Of a stretch of 64,000 nucleotides of DNA, positions 44,815 to 61,932 are shown one piece after another (within the stretch, counting starts at the first letter, position 1; each line of letters opens with the position of its first letter). Below the pieces are notes generated by a model. It did no database searches. It had not been told where the DNA came from and saw only the letters and a list, made by a program, of their open reading frames with translations. The stretch comes from a virus: positions 246,414 to 310,413 of IMG/VR virus record IMGVR_UViG_3300012988_000001, one strand, 5' to 3'. The position numbers and the translations under genes were made by a program.

Positions 44815-44906
44815 TTGCCGGTAGGCTAGAGTCCGATGCCACCCACCTCATAAGTGGATACAGTTAACCAGACACACCGAGGGTTAGAATCCCTCCCGGC
44901 GAACCA
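44815..44906 (+). tRNA. tRNA with extended variable region. Anticodon loop CUCAUAA (CAT: Met or Ile2?)
   Basis: Acceptor TTGCCGG/CCGGCGA, T-arm gagggttagaatccctc, CCA. The long variable region pairs poorly, so the isotype is uncertain. Confidence 0.45.
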
Positions 44907-54434: not shown

Positions 54435-55004
54435 GTGAAACAATTTACAAAAGAAGAATTAATCAACGCAACAAGAAATGCGACTCGTAAGACACATGTC
54501 TATACTAATTTGGGAATTAATAAGCCAAATGGTAATATGATAAAAAAAGTACAAAACCAATATGACCATCATCAACTAGATTTGAATGAAATGCTATATT
54601 GGAATATGTATACAGTTAAAACGTGTCCAGTTTGTGATGAAGAGTTTGTTGTATCTCAAAAGGTAGAACAAGCTAGACCTAAAATGACTTGCTCGTATGC
54701 ATGTTCTAATACCCATTTTAGAAGTGGTATTAATAATGGTTCTCATCAGAAATCACTTAACGGTGGGTTGAATAGTTCAAGTCATTATCGTACTATATGT
54801 TTCCATCATCATGAGAAGAAATGTATTATTTGCGGTGAAGACAAAATAGTTGCTGTACATCATTATGATGAAAATCATTATAATAATGCAGCAGAGAATT
54901 TAATCCCAATGTGTCCTACGCATCATCAATATATGCATAGCTCATACAAAGATTTAATTCAAAAACAAGTTGACGATTATGTGAAAACATGGTCTAATAC
55001 TTAA
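54435..55004 (+). CDS. HNH homing endonuclease
   Basis: CPVC/CSYAC zinc finger and ...AVHHYDENHYNNAAENLIPMCPTHHQYMH HNH motif. Confidence 0.7.
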   Translation: MKQFTKEELINATRNATRKTHVYTNLGINKPNGNMIKKVQNQYDHHQLDLNEMLYWNMYTVKTCPVCDEEFVVSQKVEQARPKMTCSYACSNTHFRSGINNGSHQKSLNGGLNSSSHYRTICFHHHEKKCIICGEDKIVAVHHYDENHYNNAAENLIPMCPTHHQYMHSSYKDLIQKQVDDYVKTWSNT

Positions 55005-55010
55005 ATCGGA

Positions 55011-55086
55011 GGTCGGTTAGCTCAGTCGGTAGAGCGAAACACTGTTAATGTTGAGGTCGCGTGTTCGAGCCACGCACCGACCGCCA
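55011..55086 (+). tRNA. tRNA-Asn (anticodon GTT)
   Basis: Acceptor GGTCGGT/ACCGACC, anticodon loop ctgttaa, T-arm gcgtgttcgagccacgc, CCA. Confidence 0.8.
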
Positions 55087-55092
55087 CAATTT

Positions 55093-55168
55093 GGTCCTAT
55101 AGTTTCAGCGGTAAAAATACTCGCCTGTCACGCGAATGTCGCGGGTTCGAATCCCGCTAGGACCGCCA
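55093..55168 (+). tRNA. tRNA-Asp (anticodon GTC)
   Basis: Acceptor GGTCCTA/TAGGACC, anticodon loop ctgtcac, T-arm gcgggttcgaatcccgc, CCA. Confidence 0.75.
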
Positions 55169-55179
55169 CTTTATGAGGA

Positions 55180-55377
55180 ATGTTTATGACAAACGTTCGA
55201 GTACTGCTAGTGTTCACGCCAGCAGAAAATGAATCATCACTTGATACCTTTTCGGTAAAACTTGATGAGAATGAAAATTTGACAGAAGATATCAAAGCTG
55301 ATATACTTCGATCATATTTTCAAAATTCCAAACGCACCACTGCGGAATTGGAAAGAATTCAATTTAGTATTGAATAA
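55180..55377 (+). CDS. small hypothetical protein embedded between tRNAs
   Basis: 65 aa ORF with GAGGAA RBS. Confidence 0.35.
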   Translation: MFMTNVRVLLVFTPAENESSLDTFSVKLDENENLTEDIKADILRSYFQNSKRTTAELERIQFSIE

Positions 55378-55378
55378 T

Positions 55379-55455
55379 GCGTTGTTAGCTCAGTTGGTAG
55401 AGCAGGGAACTTTTAATTCTCATGTCGCAAGGTTCGATTCCTGCACGACGCACCA
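55379..55455 (+). tRNA. tRNA-Lys (anticodon TTT)
   Basis: Acceptor GCGTTGT/ACGACGC, anticodon stem-loop gggaa-cttttaa-ttctc, T-arm with one bulge, CCA. Confidence 0.7.
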
Positions 55456-55457
55456 CT

Positions 55458-55531
55458 ACTCTATTCGTCTATCGGTTAGGACGTTGGCCTTTCACGCCAG
55501 AAAGAACAGTTCGATTCTGTTATAGAGTACC
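55458..55531 (+). tRNA. tRNA-Glu (anticodon TTC)
   Basis: Acceptor ACTCTAT/ATAGAGT, anticodon stem-loop ttggc-ctttcac-gccag, T-arm aacagttcgattctgtt, CCA. Confidence 0.7.
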
Positions 55532-55533
55532 AC

Positions 55534-55620
55534 ATTTACTGTTAGCTCAGATGGTAGAGCGGTTGTACTGGTGAGACTCCAGACAAAAGGGACACTGGTT
55601 CGATGCCAGTACAGTAAACC
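55534..55620 (+). tRNA. atypical tRNA-like gene. It has acceptor, D-arm, T-arm and CCA, but an 8 to 10 nt expanded anticodon or variable region and no clean anticodon loop
   Basis: Acceptor TTACTGT/ACAGTAA, D-arm tagctcagatggtagagc, T-arm actggttcgatgccagt, CCA. The middle folds as gtactgg-tgagact-ccagac. Confidence 0.3.
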
Positions 55621-55625
55621 ACAAT

Positions 55626-55701
55626 GCGTGATGATAGTTCAGTGTCAGAATATTTCCCTTTAGGATTCGGCAACGGTTAGATTCCGTTGATTCACGCTCC
55701 A
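55626..55701 (+). other. degenerate tRNA-like element (T-arm aacggttagattccgtt, imperfect acceptor, ends CCA)
   Basis: Read directly. D-arm and anticodon arm pairing are poor. Confidence 0.2.
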
Positions 55702-55991
55702 AACATGTTGGTGTAGATTAATCTGCATGGCAACGGGGAGAAATCCCACTCAGCAGGAGAGCAATGTAACAACTATGGTCGTGGCCGATTCCTGCCGACC
55801 CGCTTAGTACTCGTAAGGTACTAAACGATTATAAGTACAGAAGTATAAGGGCAGCGGTGTATACCAAATTGACGATACTATTTCTGTACTTTCTTTTTAT
55901 GGTAACAGATAACCAATTCTTGCAGTAATCCAGAGGGAGTGTATGCTGGGAGGGGGATATCTTGGAGTGAAAATCTTCATGTTACCTGCAT

Positions 55992-56117
55992 TGCGTGACG
56001 TTACGTAGAGCACCGAACAGATATCCTAAGTCAGTCTAGAAATACTTAGGAAGGAGTTAGTGTTATCTAGGGTATCATACGAGGTTGATCGCTCGTTGGT
56101 GTGGTTCGAGTCCACGG
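55992..56117 (+). other. tRNA-like element with a canonical T-arm (tgtggttcgagtccacg), a 3' acceptor strand plus CCA, and a matching 5' strand 126 nt upstream. Too long for a standard tRNA
   Basis: gcgtgac ... gttacgt-a-cca pairing found by eye. Confidence 0.2.
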
Positions 56118-56300
56118 TTACGTACCACTTAAATCATTTACCTTTAGACTGTAGTTCGAAATGCAGAATATTGGGGTACATAACATCGCTTAAGGACTTC
56201 GTTTAGCGGCGAAGGGGATACGTGCAAGGGTTATGAAGAAAATACCGGGAACGACTGGCTATGCCTTAGATGATTTATTTTTAATTAAAGGAGTACTGAA

Positions 56301-56693
56301 ATGCTTCATGACTTAATAGAGTTGTATTATTATATTAAGAATCTCGATAAGATTGATAACGCAATATATAGTTGGCGTTTTGAAACATGTGGCATATTAC
56401 ATTATCTGGATTTGAAACAGGTAATGAATCCTCACACTGGTGAGATATATCTTGCCATCAAATTATATGTAACATCACAGGATTCAAATTTTAAGAGTTC
56501 TAGTATTCGAGTTGATCCTAATCGAGTTGTATATAGAGATTCATATGCTCAATTATACACTACCAACCACGAAGGTGCTTTGACTGATGAGAATGCAGAT
56601 TATCTGTTAACTTGTCTCAGTACTGAAGAGGTTAACGCTATTGGTTGCATCTATGATGAAATCAATGCTTTATATAAACGGAGTCGTGTATGA
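56301..56693 (+). CDS. FQ-family variant protein
   Basis: C-terminus ...CLSTEEVNAIGCIYDEINALYKRS. Same N-terminal LI.LYYYIK start as the next ORF. Confidence 0.4.
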   Translation: MLHDLIELYYYIKNLDKIDNAIYSWRFETCGILHYLDLKQVMNPHTGEIYLAIKLYVTSQDSNFKSSSIRVDPNRVVYRDSYAQLYTTNHEGALTDENADYLLTCLSTEEVNAIGCIYDEINALYKRSRV

Positions 56694-57088
56694 TCCAAGA
56701 CTTAATTGATGTTTATTATTACATTAAAAGCGTTGATGACCTTCAAGACCTTGAGGGTTGGGCATTTACTGCCGCCACGTCATCCCATGCGATAACAATT
56801 GTCCCAACGTGGAATGCAACGTATACTGATCGTAAATGGGAAATTAAAATAACCACTGGTAACATAAATGATTATCGGTGGATTTTTTTGACCAAAAATC
56901 AGGTAGAAGTATTCCATTACTGGAAATATCGTTACGCAATATCAATTCCCGGATTAATCACCGAGAATGAATCTGATATGTTGATGAAATTCATCAGTAC
57001 TAATGAGATTTCTATTATAAATCAGATCTTACTTGAAATGCGTAAATTAGAGAACAGGAGCGTTCCTTATGAACGAACTAAATCGTAA
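56690..57088 (+). CDS. FQ-family variant protein (paralog of 56301 gene: MIQDLIDVYYYIKSVDDL vs MLHDLIELYYYIKNLDKI)
   Basis: Read directly. Confidence 0.4.
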   Translation: MIQDLIDVYYYIKSVDDLQDLEGWAFTAATSSHAITIVPTWNATYTDRKWEIKITTGNINDYRWIFLTKNQVEVFHYWKYRYAISIPGLITENESDMLMKFISTNEISIINQILLEMRKLENRSVPYERTKS

Positions 57089-58756: not shown

Positions 58757-58844
58757 GGGAGAGTGATGGAAAGGCATACATAGGCATCTCCAGTGTCTTA
58801 GTCTTGATGACAATGCAAGGTTCGAGTCCTTGTCTCTCCCACCA
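58757..58844 (+). other. tRNA-like element (acceptor GGGAGAG/CTCTCCC, T-arm caaggttcgagtccttg plus 1 nt, CCA)
   Basis: Read directly. The anticodon arm was not resolved. Confidence 0.3.
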
Positions 58845-61383: not shown

Positions 61384-61932
61384 ATGTATAATAAGAAGAT
61401 AGAAATATCTGGCATTAACAATGGTTACCAATATTTTATTGATTATGAACATCCATTAGCAACCGGAAATTCAGGAAGGGTGTATTTACACCGTCACATC
61501 GCATCAATTAAAATTAGTCGATGGGTTACTGGTAATGAACATGTTCACCATATTGATGAAAACAAACTTAATAATGATGAAGTTAATTTGGAAGTACTAT
61601 CAGATCTTGAACATCGTCGTTTACATTGGAAAGAAAGAAATAATTTGCCAGATGATTACGAATGGTTTGATTCTGAAATTATTCCATGTAATTGGTGCTC
61701 AGAATTATTTCAAACGAAATATAAAGATCACATGTATTGTTCTATTAGTTGCGGATCATTAGCACAACCACAAAAATTCCCAATTGATAAAGATATATTA
61801 TCCGAATTGATTTGGAAAATGCCAGCCACTGAGATAGCCAAAATATATGGTTGCTCTGATAAAACCATCGGTAAAAAATGTAACCGATATAATATAACCA
61901 AACCACCACGCGGTTATTGGTTGCGTAAATAA
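61384..61932 (+). CDS. HNH homing endonuclease
   Basis: ...NEHVHHIDENKLNNDEVNLEVLSDLEHRRLH HNH motif. C-terminal Cys pairs. Confidence 0.7.
   Translation: MYNKKIEISGINNGYQYFIDYEHPLATGNSGRVYLHRHIASIKISRWVTGNEHVHHIDENKLNNDEVNLEVLSDLEHRRLHWKERNNLPDDYEWFDSEIIPCNWCSELFQTKYKDHMYCSISCGSLAQPQKFPIDKDILSELIWKMPATEIAKIYGCSDKTIGKKCNRYNITKPPRGYWLRK

What the first reader, a model, noticed from the sequence alone, without database searches (positions are those of the whole stretch)
55534..56117. ORF-free ~750 nt segment after the tRNA cluster containing atypical or degenerate tRNA-like elements
After four canonical tRNAs (Asn, Asp, Lys, Glu) comes a gene with perfect acceptor, D-arm, T-arm and CCA but an oversized, non-canonical middle (55534-55620). 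Next are a degenerate tRNA-like piece (55626-55701), several strong hairpins (for example ttagtac-tcgtaag-gtactaa at 55805-55825), and a T-arm plus acceptor plus CCA end (56090-56117). The matching 5' strand of that last element lies 126 nt upstream. This could be tRNA pseudogenes, tRNAs with unusual insertions, tRNA-derived regulatory RNAs, or decoys for host tRNA-targeting nucleases (anticodon nucleases such as PrrC or RloC).
Basis: seen in the sequence. Interest (0 to 1): 0.55.

Follow-up and report, generated by a model that had tools for sequence, protein, structure and literature searches.

The report
tRNA-shaped non-decoding RNAs after phage tRNAs
The gene-free stretch after this giant phage's tRNA cluster encodes a string of conserved, folded RNAs built like tRNAs but unable to read codons, resembling phage T4's two small RNAs whose function is still unknown, with one domain shared by unrelated phages and missing from the RNA family catalogue.

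Summary
The region 55536-56300 (+ strand) is an array of structured non-coding RNAs, not decayed tRNA genes.

- U1 (55536-55621) is tRNA-shaped, with an extended, non-decoding anticodon arm.
- U2 (55626-55703) is a weaker tRNA-like element ending in UCCA.
- U3 (55704-55992) holds a pseudoknot, a long hairpin and an optional 95-nt insert.
- U4 (55993-56127) is a 135-nt four-way junction ending in ACCA.
- U5 (56128-56300) is a conserved leader.

A related metagenomic phage (L314) keeps U1-U3 and U5 at 93-99% identity, while neighbouring ORFs are 65-83% identical. U4 is only 79% identical, yet all 38 base pairs are kept and 8 changed on both sides. U4 has the same architecture as T4 RNAC, whose role is unknown.

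The U3 pseudoknot core is 85-88% identical to RNA next to tRNA genes, or ahead of a tRNA-like CCA end, in unrelated phages. It links to a large modular phage RNA family with no Rfam match. Some E. coli prophage members carry tmRNA-like tag frames; the window does not.

Most likely these are RNase P/CCA-processed stable tRNA mimics. Their target is unknown. The anticodon-nuclease decoy idea is not supported.

The parts
55279..55307 (+). Sigma-70-like promoter (TTGACA-17-TATACT, with TG) inside a 65-aa ORF. It is the candidate start of a transcript covering tRNA-Lys, tRNA-Glu and the RNA array.
   Evidence: 11 of 12 consensus matches. No + strand terminator is predicted before 56400. This is a consensus match only, so function is inferred.
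55536..55621 (+). U1: tRNA-shaped RNA with a 7-bp acceptor, D-arm, T-arm and ACCA. The anticodon arm is lengthened by an extra CUGG/CCAG helix capped by UGAGACU, which lacks U33 and a purine at 37, so it is non-decoding.
   Evidence: ARAGORN 'tRNA-???'. Rfam tRNA 40 bits with a 16-nt insertion. 96% identical in L314, with a compensatory acceptor change TTACTGT/ACAGTAA to TTTCTGT/ACAGAAA.
55626..55703 (+). U2: degenerate tRNA-like RNA. The acceptor is GCGTGA/TCACGC with tandem G-A/A-G. It has a D-like hairpin, a 3-bp stem with a 5-nt loop in place of the anticodon arm, the T-arm AACGG-TTAGATT-CCGTT, then U-CCA at 55698-55701.
   Evidence: Rfam tRNA 26.7 bits, below the gathering score of 29. 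The MFE fold closes with this acceptor. 99% identical in L314.
55704..55825 (+). U3a: conserved pseudoknot domain. Hairpin 55735-55747. S1 GCAGGA 55753-55758 pairs with TCCTGC 55790-55795. S2 GGTCG 55777-55781 pairs with CGACC 55796-55800. An invariant CCGAUU sits in the loop. Hairpin 55804-55824.
   Evidence: blastn of the window region against the phage collection gave 87.5% over 64 nt to phages 15b/15G, E 9e-13. A local blastn of the 55700-55830 core gave 87.9% over 66 nt to L004 and 85% over 54 nt to L310/L281. On alignment A4, S2 is paired in 5 of 5 sequences with 2 pairs changed on both sides (GGTC/GACC, GGTA/TACC, GATC/GATC), and the hairpin has 5 such pairs. S1 is invariant among these five. 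It covaries in tag-type relatives (CAAGG/CCTTG, TGAGG/CCTCA, CGGGG/CCCCG), read.
55831..55891 (+). U3b: long hairpin, AUAAGUACAGAAG...UUCUGUACUU. It occupies the position of the family's 'connector' hairpin GGTAAGAGCA...TGCTCTTTCC.
   Evidence: MFE fold. 93% identical in L314, where TATTTC becomes TACTTC and turns a G-U into a G-C opposite GAAGTA. Homology to the family connector is inferred from position only.
55897..55992 (+). Optional inserted module, closed by GGTAAC (55901-55906) pairing with GTTACC (55981-55986). It is absent from the relative L314.
   Evidence: Alignment A2 shows a ~94-nt window-only segment. No match in L314. It folds as a self-contained branched hairpin.
55993..56127 (+). 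U4: 135-nt tRNA-like four-way junction. Acceptor 55993-55999 pairs with 56117-56123. Long arm 56002-56074 with apical loop CAGUCUAGAAAU. Hairpin H1 56079-56096 with loop GUUGAUCG. T-arm 56100-56116. Discriminator A plus CCA at 56124-56127.
   Evidence: Independent MFE folds of the window and L314 give the same junction. All 38 pairs are kept in both sequences, with 8 changed on both sides (acceptor 2, long arm 6); 0 of 500 shuffles reach this, and slid controls give 0. G-U pairs fix the strand as +. The architecture matches T4 RNAC.
56128..56300 (+). U5: conserved untranslated leader with a T-arm-like hairpin CUGUA-GUUCGAAA-UGCAG (56149-56166). It ends in the Shine-Dalgarno AAAGGAG and the ATG at 56301.
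   Evidence: 95% identical in L314, against 74% for the ORF that follows. No supported structure (z-score +0.2).

Best explanation
The stretch 55536-56300 is a tandem array of structured non-coding RNAs appended to the phage's tRNA operon. It contains two tRNA-shaped RNAs whose anticodon arms cannot decode (U1, U2). It also contains a ~290-nt pseudoknot/hairpin domain (U3) and a 135-nt four-way-junction tRNA mimic ending in ACCA (U4), which is built like T4 RNAC.

Shown: the structures exist and are under selection on the + strand.

Inferred: the array is co-transcribed with tRNA-Lys and tRNA-Glu from the promoter-like site at 55279-55307. Host RNase P cuts at each acceptor 5' end, and the 3' ends are trimmed to the encoded CCA. 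Each unit, including U3 lying between two tRNA-like ends, would then be released as a stable small RNA.

In this reading the tRNA-like acceptor/T-arm parts act as processing and stability handles and as mimics of the tRNA acceptor-elbow. The sequence-invariant loops would be the working surfaces: CCGAUU in U3, and UCUAGA and GUUGAUCG in U4.

My best guess at function is that these RNAs bind or titrate a host factor that reads the acceptor end or elbow of tRNA rather than the anticodon. That last step is speculative.
For: Structure and selection:
- U4 keeps 38 of 38 pairs, with 8 double compensatory changes against L314.
- Both sequences fold independently into the same junction.
- U1 has a compensatory acceptor change.
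- The U3a pseudoknot and hairpin covary across five phages.
- Identity to L314 is 93-99% for U1-U3 and U5. Flanking ORFs are 65-83% and tRNA-Asp is 80%.

tRNA-like handles:
- Rfam tRNA scores 40 and 26.7 bits for U1 and U2.
- All units end in NCCA, like the window's genuine tRNAs.

Operon:
- A strong promoter-like site lies upstream and no + strand terminator is predicted before 56400.

Precedent:
- T4 has tRNA-Arg, then RNAD (119 nt), then RNAC (139 nt), next to a homing endonuclease gene, as here.
- RNAC folds into an acceptor-like stem, a long arm, a hairpin and a T-arm.
- RNAC and RNAD accumulate in infection and their roles are unknown (PMC3014915; PMC9697503).

Spread:
- In L002, L004 and the window, the U3a core starts directly after the 3' end of a tRNA or tRNA-like unit.
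- In L281 the same core begins an RNA that ends ~490 nt later in a T-arm, ATCGCCC-A-CCA and a terminator.
Against: - There are no expression or end-mapping data. Processing by RNase P and use of the CCA are inferred only.
- Folding energies are not better than shuffles (z -1.1 to -2.0).
- The T-loop of U4 is not conserved in L314 (TTCGAGT against ATCATGA). This weakens the idea of a canonical tRNA elbow.
- In L314, U1 is not followed by CCA.
- A covariance model built from the enterobacterial two-hairpin module finds L004 and L002 but not the window. The window's link to the large family therefore rests on the ~64-nt core and on the order of elements.
- No neighbouring protein gives a functional clue: 20 ORFs had no informative Pfam hit.
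- The proposed target (an acceptor- or elbow-binding factor) has no direct evidence.
Confidence: 0.6

Rival explanations
1. Decaying tRNA pseudogenes: remnants of duplicated tRNA genes with no function, common in tRNA-rich phages.
For: U2 scores below Rfam's tRNA threshold and has acceptor mismatches. The window holds other odd tRNA-like genes at 44815-44906 and 58759-58844, called by ARAGORN but not by Rfam. A 95-nt block is present in the window and absent in L314, and L314 has its own ~103-nt insert.
Against: U1, U2 and U3 are 93-99% identical to L314, while tRNA-Asp is 80% and the ORFs 65-83%. U4 diverged to 79% but kept every pair through 8 double changes. U1 shows a compensatory acceptor change.
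Confidence: 0.07
2. Decoys for host anticodon nucleases (PrrC, RloC, colicin-like enzymes): tRNA look-alikes that soak up the nuclease.
For: The units sit in a phage tRNA cluster. Phage tRNAs are proposed to counter tRNA-targeting defences (title of PMC10264068, listed; not read).
Against: From my own knowledge, these enzymes recognise the anticodon stem-loop. U1 has a 16-nt insertion there. U2 has a 5-nt loop. U4 has an 8-nt GUUGAUCG loop. None resembles the Lys, Glu or Arg anticodon loops.
Confidence: 0.05
3. A tag-less, degenerate relative of a phage tmRNA-like RNA. U3 plus U4 would be one ~400-nt RNA (pseudoknots plus a tRNA-like end) that engages the ribosome-rescue machinery, for example by titrating SmpB, without tagging proteins.
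For: - In relatives, the counterpart of U3a's S1 helix and CCGAUU loop lies directly 3' of tmRNA-like tag frames. These read ANDDVVLMAA*, ANEEMYLAVA*, ANDEQFLAVA* and others, and occur in 23 of 125 loci.
- Rfam tmRNA_permuted gives sub-threshold hits on that tag region (33 bits, threshold 47).
- The L281 RNA runs promoter, pseudoknot domain, T-arm/CCA, terminator over ~500 nt, which is tmRNA-sized.
- Mycobacteriophage DS6A carries little more than a tmRNA tRNA-like domain, and a similar molecule strongly inhibits tmRNA, perhaps by titrating SmpB (PMC4131195).
Against: - ARAGORN calls no tmRNA in the window or in any of 125 family loci.
- No tmRNA model hits 55400-56400 at E up to 10.
- No conserved tag frame exists in the window, L314, L002, L004 or L310 (read).
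- The acceptor has G3-C70 (U3-A70 in L314), not the G3-U70 needed for alanine charging.
- U4 is a four-way junction, not the three-way junction of a tmRNA tRNA-like domain.
- The 5' strand of the acceptor is internal (55993), so U3 lies outside the tRNA-like fold.
Confidence: 0.12
4. A cis-acting 5' leader of the downstream genes (56301 onward). It would act as an attenuator or as processing and stability signals, as in the late-gene leaders where the related RNAs lie in lambdoid prophages.
For: No terminator is predicted between the array and the ORF at 56301. U5 is 95% conserved up to the Shine-Dalgarno. In E. coli 55989, the family RNA fills the gap between antiterminator Q and the holin gene.
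Against: The encoded CCA ends and tRNA-like acceptor/T-arm modules point to excision as separate RNAs. T4 RNAC and RNAD accumulate in infection and are detectable on Northern blots (PMC9697503). The U3a core occurs in front of unrelated downstream genes in other phages.
Confidence: 0.1
5. One large self-assembling 'ornate' RNA, of the ROOL/GOLLD kind, that multimerises through kissing loops.
For: It is a 400-700 nt ORF-free structured region next to phage tRNA genes. Its conserved loops contain palindromes: UCUAGA and GAUC in U4, and UGAUCA in family loops. ROOL and GOLLD form homo-oligomeric RNA-only complexes (abstract of PMC12286853, listed).
Against: No ROOL or GOLLD match at E up to 10. 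Modules are gained and lost between close relatives, which is hard to reconcile with one rigid assembly. Palindromic 4-6-mers in loops are weak evidence.
Confidence: 0.06

Closest known systems
Phage T4 RNAC ('species 1', 139 nt) and RNAD ('species 2', 119 nt) small stable RNAs
   Same: They lie at the distal end of the phage tRNA cluster, beside a homing endonuclease gene. RNAC folds into an acceptor-like closing stem, a long arm, a second hairpin and a canonical T-arm at the 3' end, which is the architecture of U4 at nearly the same size. They are non-decoding and their function is unknown (PMC3014915, PMC9697503).
   Different: No detectable sequence similarity beyond the T-arm (blastn-short). 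The window has more units (U1, U2, U3). It also encodes the CCA, which T4 RNAC does not.
tmRNA (SsrA), and the tRNA-like-domain-only RNA of mycobacteriophage DS6A
   Same: Both combine pseudoknots with a tRNA-like acceptor/T-arm/CCA end. Relatives of U3a sit next to genuine-looking tag reading frames.
   Different: The window has no tag frame and no G3-U70. No tmRNA model or ARAGORN hit was found. U4 has a four-way rather than a three-way junction.
ROOL and GOLLD large RNAs
   Same: They are large structured RNAs of phages and prophages, of unknown function. From my own recollection, not checked here, they are often found beside tRNA genes.
   Different: No covariance-model match. The window's region is built of separable, individually tRNA-like modules.
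Bacterial Y RNA-like YrlA (tRNA-mimicking Y RNAs)
   Same: It is a tRNA mimic (PMC4201824, listed; not read). From my own knowledge, it is modular, with a tRNA-like domain joined to a long stem.
   Different: The only YrlA hit is a 16-bit chance-level match at 55505-55560, threshold 69. No Ro60/Rsr-like protein turned up among the 20 neighbouring ORFs scanned.
Canonical tRNA (Rfam RF00005)
   Same: U1 passes the family score and has acceptor, D-arm, T-arm and CCA.
   Different: There is a 16-nt insertion in place of the anticodon loop. U2 is below threshold and U4 is not matched at all.

Membership tests
tRNA (RF00005) | Covariance-model score at or above the gathering score (29 bits) | tested here: inconclusive
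   U1 scores 40 bits in the permissive scan of 1 kb, but was not listed in the whole-window gathering scan. U2 scores 26.7 bits, below threshold. U4 has no match.
tRNA (RF00005) | 7-nt anticodon loop with U33 and a purine at 37, able to decode | tested here: not met
   U1 has a 16-nt insertion that forms CUGG/CCAG plus UGAGACU, and ARAGORN reports 'tRNA-???' with a 4-base anticodon. U2 has a 5-nt loop. U4 has the 8-nt loop GUUGAUCG.
tmRNA | Detected by ARAGORN or by the Rfam tmRNA models | tested here: not met
   none in the window at E up to 10.
tmRNA | Tag reading frame with an alanine resume codon and a hydrophobic C-terminus, conserved among relatives | tested here: not met
   No frame is conserved between the window, L314, L002, L004 and L310 (read). 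Such frames occur only in a different subset of the family.
tmRNA | G3-U70 alanine identity pair in the acceptor stem | tested here: not met
   U4 has G3-C70, and L314 has U3-A70.
T4 RNAC-like small stable RNA | Non-decoding RNA of ~120-140 nt at the end of a phage tRNA cluster, with an acceptor-like closing stem, a long arm, a hairpin and a 3' T-arm | tested here: met
   U4 is 135 nt with this fold. The T4 RNAC fold is and the T4 gene order.
T4 RNAC-like small stable RNA | Sequence homology to T4 RNAC or RNAD | tested here: not met
   blastn-short found only T-arm-sized matches to other loci and none to the window. No curated model exists to test against.
T4 RNAC-like small stable RNA | Accumulates as a discrete stable RNA during infection | not testable with these tools
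   Needs RNA from infected cells.
ROOL / GOLLD | Match to the Rfam covariance models | tested here: not met
   no hit at E up to 10 over 55400-56400.
YrlA (Y RNA-like) | Match to RF02553 at the gathering score | tested here: not met
   16.3 bits against 69, at 55505-55560, straddling tRNA-Glu and U1. Family arrays also gave no YrlA hit.
Modular enterobacterial phage RNA family (connector GGTAAGAGCA...TGCTCTTTCCGTTGTGGTGAA; uncatalogued) | Significant sequence match of the pseudoknot core to members that carry the connector | tested here: met
   The window region matches 15b/15G (L002) at E 9e-13 against 2.3 Gb. The 55700-55830 core matches L004 at 87.9% over 66 nt. L002 and L004 both carry the connector and the tRNA-like module.
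Modular enterobacterial phage RNA family (connector GGTAAGAGCA...TGCTCTTTCCGTTGTGGTGAA; uncatalogued) | Presence of the conserved connector sequence, or of the two-hairpin module as scored by a family-derived covariance model | tested here: not met
   The 17-mer is absent from the window. Model R1 finds L004 (49 bits) and L002 (28 bits), but nothing in 55500-56300 at E up to 10. The window has only positional analogues.

The most novel reading that the evidence does not exclude
U3-U4 is a divergent outpost of a large, uncatalogued, modular phage RNA system. In that system tRNA-like units, pseudoknots and conserved 'connector' hairpins are shuffled like cassettes. The system occurs in more than 120 IMG/VR contigs. 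Its tag-carrying module is found in 171 of 5426 complete E. coli genomes and fills the Q-to-holin late leader of the E. coli 55989 prophage. Some members encode tmRNA-like degradation tags. If so, these phages carry their own RNA machinery aimed at the translation or ribosome-rescue apparatus, and the window's tag-less version, together with T4 RNAC/RNAD-like RNAs, would be variants of it.
Probability: 0.25. Interest if true: 0.85.

Novelty: new variant of a known kind. Interest (0 to 1): 0.62.

Why it matters
Small stable RNAs encoded with phage tRNA clusters have been known in T4 for about 50 years, and their function is still unknown. This locus gives a second, independently evolving example, with covariation-supported structures. 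It also has natural module gain and loss between two close relatives.

The pseudoknot core recurs in unrelated phages and links to a widespread RNA family that is missing from Rfam and from genome annotation. Relatives of that family in E. coli prophages carry tmRNA-like tags. That points to translation or ribosome rescue as a testable target.

Together this makes the old question of what phage tRNA-like RNAs are for approachable by comparative genomics, and by simple deletion and pull-down experiments.

Tried and rejected
- Rfam: the whole window at gathering score, the 1-kb region at E up to 10, and 20+ related loci. Only tRNA hits and sub-threshold tmRNA tag-region hits appeared.
- ARAGORN tmRNA search on the window and all related loci: none.
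- Pattern scans of public collections. Most hits for CTCAGCAGGAGAGC, GTGGCCGATTCCTGCC and the gapped patterns were chance matches in coding DNA. This held for the viral scans and for the metagenome and genome scans. Only L004, L314 and L310/L281 were real.
- The U1 anticodon-arm pattern hit three viral contigs, all inside protein-coding sequence. The U4 H1 pattern hit nothing.
- Covariance model R1, built from the enterobacterial two-hairpin module, did not find the window's two look-alike sites. My proposal that 55777-55824 and 56079-56116 are copies of that module is therefore unproven.
- Micro-ORF reading of the conserved core (MVVADSC[R/L]PA*): rejected. The variable codon positions are exactly the two sides of helix S2, stop positions differ between relatives, and the AGGAG lies about 17-22 nt upstream of the ATG.
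- My first register for the U4 acceptor (ACGTTAC/GTTACGT, with a U-U mismatch), and the idea that ATGGTAAC...GTTACC was a first tRNA-like acceptor, were replaced after comparison with L314.
- Thermodynamic stability: z-scores of -0.9 to -2.0 are not significant.
- Pfam on 20 neighbouring ORFs: one HNH_3 hit and nothing bearing on RNA.
- Search for other copies of the units within the window: none.
- Literature searches found no description of this RNA family or of tmRNA-like tags in enterobacterial prophage late leaders. The library is incomplete, so prior description cannot be excluded.
- 'Always next to tRNA genes' is false for the large family: only 21 of 125 loci have a tRNA within 1.5 kb.
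Full report
**What is there**

The window comes from a tRNA-rich jumbo phage. Its only DNA-level relatives among sequenced phages are the ~350-kb Salmonella phages 7t3, SE_PL and Munch, and they match only across the Asn-Asp-Lys-Glu tRNA genes.

ARAGORN finds 14 tRNA genes in the window. Four canonical ones lie at 55011-55532, followed by a 'tRNA-???' at 55536-55621. Rfam confirms 11 tRNAs at the gathering score. In a permissive scan of 55400-56400 it also scores 55536-55618 at 40 bits, with 16 nt where the 7-nt anticodon loop should be. It scores 55628-55696 at 26.7 bits, just under the threshold of 29. No other Rfam family reaches even E = 0.5, including tmRNA, ROOL, GOLLD, group I introns and YrlA. 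Between 55536 and 56300 no ORF exceeds 51 aa.

The only real correction is that the final T-arm/acceptor/CCA lies at 56100-56127 rather than 56090-56117.

**A close relative shows the region is under selection**

A metagenome scan recovered contig OBJT01002281.1 (L314), a relative of the window phage. Identity to the window, segment by segment, is as follows.

| Segment | Identity to L314 |
|---|---|
| U1 (55536-55621) | 96% |
| U2 (55626-55703) | 99% |
| U3a (55704-55825) | 98% |
| U3b (55826-55896) | 93% |
| U4 (55993-56127) | 79% |
| U5 (56128-56300) | 95% |
| Three downstream ORFs | 74%, 66%, 83% |
| tRNA-Asp | 80% |

Four of the five RNA units are far better conserved than the genes around them.

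The alignment also shows module turnover. A ~94-nt block (about 55897-55992, a self-contained branched hairpin closed by GGTAAC/GTTACC) is present only in the window. L314 has an extra ~103 nt between U1 and U2. U1 carries a compensatory change in its acceptor stem, from TTACTGT/ACAGTAA to TTTCTGT/ACAGAAA.

**U4 is a covariation-supported tRNA-like four-way junction**

Independent minimum-energy folds of the window and L314 versions give the same structure:
- a 7-bp acceptor stem (GCGUGAC 55993-55999 with GUUACGU 56117-56123);
- a 2-nt linker;
- a ~73-nt irregular long arm (56002-56074);
- a 5-bp hairpin with loop GUUGAUCG (56079-56096);
- a 3-nt linker;
- a 5-bp/7-nt T-arm (56100-56116);
- then A-CCA.

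On the gap-free alignment A6, all 38 pairs form in both sequences. Eight pairs changed on both sides: two in the acceptor and six in the long arm. Two more changed G-C to G-U or U-G to C-G. None of 500 shuffles reaches these values, and sliding the partners by 1-3 columns gives 28-41% pairing and no compensatory pairs.

By my count from the A6 alignment, about 28 columns differ and 18 of them fall in pairs that remain paired. Several G-U pairs would be C-A on the other strand, which fixes the RNA as + strand.

The apical loop AGUCUAGAAA and the GUUGAUCG loop are invariant. The T-loop is not (TTCGAGT against ATCATGA), so a canonical tRNA elbow is not guaranteed.

**U3a is a pseudoknot shared with unrelated phages**

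blastn of 55530-56300 against 50,697 phage records found one match outside the tRNAs. It was 87.5% identity over 64 nt (E 9e-13) to the identical 48-kb records 'Pseudomonas phage 15b' and 'Bacteriophage 15G'. There the matching segment starts about 40 nt after a tRNA-Met, separated from it by two small hairpins.

The same core occurs in an IMG/VR contig, a comparable distance after a tRNA-Asn/Gly/Thr cluster (L004). It also occurs in a high-GC metagenomic phage (L310/L281). There it follows a TTGACG-17-TAGAAT promoter, and the RNA ends ~490 nt later in a T-arm, ATCGCCC-A-CCA and an intrinsic terminator.

Across the five sequences the fold is:
- a small hairpin;
- helix S1 (GCAGGA/UCCUGC);
- helix S2, formed between the S1 loop and the segment 3' of S1 (GGUCG/CGACC), which makes an H-type pseudoknot;
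- an invariant CCGAUU;
- a hairpin with a 7-nt loop.

S2 is paired in all five with two double changes (GGTC/GACC, GGTA/TACC, GATC/GATC). The hairpin has five double changes. S1 is invariant here but covaries in a sister group (CAAGG/CCTTG, TGAGG/CCTCA, CGGGG/CCCCG; read).

A 10-codon ORF over this core was considered. It was rejected because its variable positions are precisely the two strands of S2.

**Link to a large uncatalogued family**

In 15b and L004 the core is followed by a conserved 'connector' hairpin (ACAACAGGTAAGAGCA...TGCTCTTTCCGTTGT). After that comes a tRNA-like module in which GTTGTGGTG pairs with CACCACAAC. This module has either true D- and T-arms or substitute hairpins.

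The 3' half of the connector is 100% identical in more than 40 GenBank phages of E. coli, Klebsiella, Salmonella, Pantoea and Erwinia, always in unannotated gaps. It is also in more than 120 IMG/VR contigs, of which about 90 are non-redundant.

Of the 125 loci carrying the connector 17-mer (IMG/VR contigs plus the GenBank phage loci fetched), 23 contain tmRNA-like tag frames behind a conserved AUAAAU-GCA resume context. The tags are ANDEQFLAVA, ANDDVVLMAA, ANDDLMLMAA, ANEEMYLAVA, ANEEMYLAAA, ANDDLMLAAA and ANEEVYLAVA. This is the only part that weakly matches Rfam's tmRNA_permuted model (33 bits against 47).

That tag module occurs in 171 of 5426 complete E. coli genomes and is unannotated. 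In strain 55989 it fills the gap between antiterminator Q and the holin gene.

Neither ARAGORN nor Rfam recognises any of this. A limited literature search found no description, and the 2014 tmRNA census lists only mycobacteriophages and Bacillus phage G (PMC4131195).

The window is a peripheral member at best. It lacks the connector sequence and any tag frame. A covariance model of the family's two-hairpin module detects L004 and L002 but not the window. Only 21 of 125 family loci have a tRNA gene within 1.5 kb, so tRNA adjacency is a feature of the window-type subgroup, not of the whole family.

**Closest known**

T4 has the same layout: a tRNA cluster, a homing endonuclease gene, tRNA-Arg, then RNAD (119 nt) and RNAC (139 nt). 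RNAC folds into an acceptor-like closing stem, a long arm, a hairpin and a canonical T-arm, which is the U4 plan. No sequence similarity is detectable.

RNAC and RNAD accumulate late in infection and their roles are unknown (PMC3014915; PMC9697503).

**How it most likely works**

Shown:
- the units are real, strand-specific structures under purifying selection;
- three of them have tRNA-like acceptor and T-arm parts followed by an encoded CCA;
- none can decode.

Inferred: one transcript starts at the strong promoter-like site at 55279-55307 and runs through the array, since no + strand terminator is predicted. RNase P cleaves at 55536, 55626 and 55993, and exonucleases trim to the CCA. The ~290-nt U3 would then be released between two tRNA-like ends.

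In this reading the tRNA-like parts serve as processing and stability handles and as mimics of the acceptor-elbow half of tRNA. The invariant loops would be the contact surfaces.

The target is unknown. I favour a host factor that reads the acceptor end or elbow. Anticodon-nuclease decoys are unlikely, because the anticodon stem-loop is the one part that is consistently absent. A tag-less tmRNA-like role, a cis-acting leader and a self-assembling large RNA remain possible at lower probability.

**Verdict**

The finding is confirmed and is more than tRNA debris. It is best filed as a new, richer variant of the T4 RNAC/RNAD kind of phage tRNA-cluster RNA. One domain ties it to a widespread and apparently undescribed phage RNA family. 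Function remains inferred.

Noticed in passing
L146 1311-1346 (E. coli phage HC6); L147 (Klebsiella phage DP01); L145 (phage IME11); L267 3311-4100 (E. coli 55989 prophage, between Q and holin): Unannotated phage and prophage RNAs carry tmRNA-like tag frames (ANDDVVLMAA**, ANEEMYLAVA*, ANDEQFLAVA* and others) behind an AUAAAU-GCA resume context, followed by a covarying pseudoknot. The module is present in 171 of 5426 complete E. coli genomes. ARAGORN and Rfam do not call it a tmRNA, and the associated tRNA-like stem lacks G3-U70.
   Followed up: partly
L148-L266 and L002, L004, L144-L147 (family loci): A conserved 'connector' hairpin (ACAACAGGTAAGAGCA...variable...TGCTCTTTCCGTTGT) separates highly variable RNA modules, sometimes in tandem (L152, L202, L266). 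The layout recalls a cassette array. GTTGT can pair either with the upstream ACAAC or with a downstream CACCACAAC, so two mutually exclusive folds are possible.
   Followed up: partly
window 44815-44906 and 58759-58844: Two more oversized tRNA-like genes are called by ARAGORN but missed by Rfam at the gathering score. One is 'Met' (92 nt, with a ~20-nt unstructured variable region). The other is 'Gly' (86 nt, with mismatches in an 8-bp acceptor and a degenerate D-arm). Both end in CCA.
   Followed up: partly
window 54435-55004 and 61384-61932: Homing-endonuclease-type genes are interspersed with the tRNA genes, as segB is in the T4 tRNA cluster. 61384-61932 hits Pfam HNH_3. 54435-55004 has a Cys/His-rich HNH-like C-terminus but no Pfam hit.
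   Followed up: partly
window 55180-55377: A 65-aa ORF lies between tRNA-Asp and tRNA-Lys. It contains the best sigma-70-like promoter of the region (TTGACA-17-TATACT with TG, at 55279-55307). In Salmonella phage 7t3, Asp and Lys are only 2 nt apart, so this ORF plus promoter is an insertion.
   Followed up: no
L314 (reverse complement) about 382-487, between its U1 and U2: The relative carries a ~103-nt insert at the place where the window has only ACCAC. As a result its U1 is not followed by an encoded CCA. This is another example of module gain or loss in the array.
   Followed up: no
window 56036-56041 (UCUAGA), 56087-56090 (GAUC); family loops AUUGAUCAC and AGAUCAGCA: The sequence-invariant hairpin loops contain 4-6-nt palindromes. 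These could form kissing-loop dimers. At the DNA level, GATC is also a Dam site.
   Followed up: no
window 55710-55721 against L147 about 1206-1217: The 12-mer GGTGTAGATTAA is shared with the -10 region of the TTGACA-17-TAGATT promoter that drives the DP01/HC6 RNAs. In the window the matching -35 is only TTCACG, and the site was not called by the promoter scan.
   Followed up: partly
window 56301-56693 and 56690-57088: Two adjacent ORFs of 130 and 132 aa begin with near-identical N-termini (MLHDLIELYYYIKNLD / MIQDLIDVYYYIKSVD), so they are tandem paralogues. Neither has a Pfam match.
   Followed up: no
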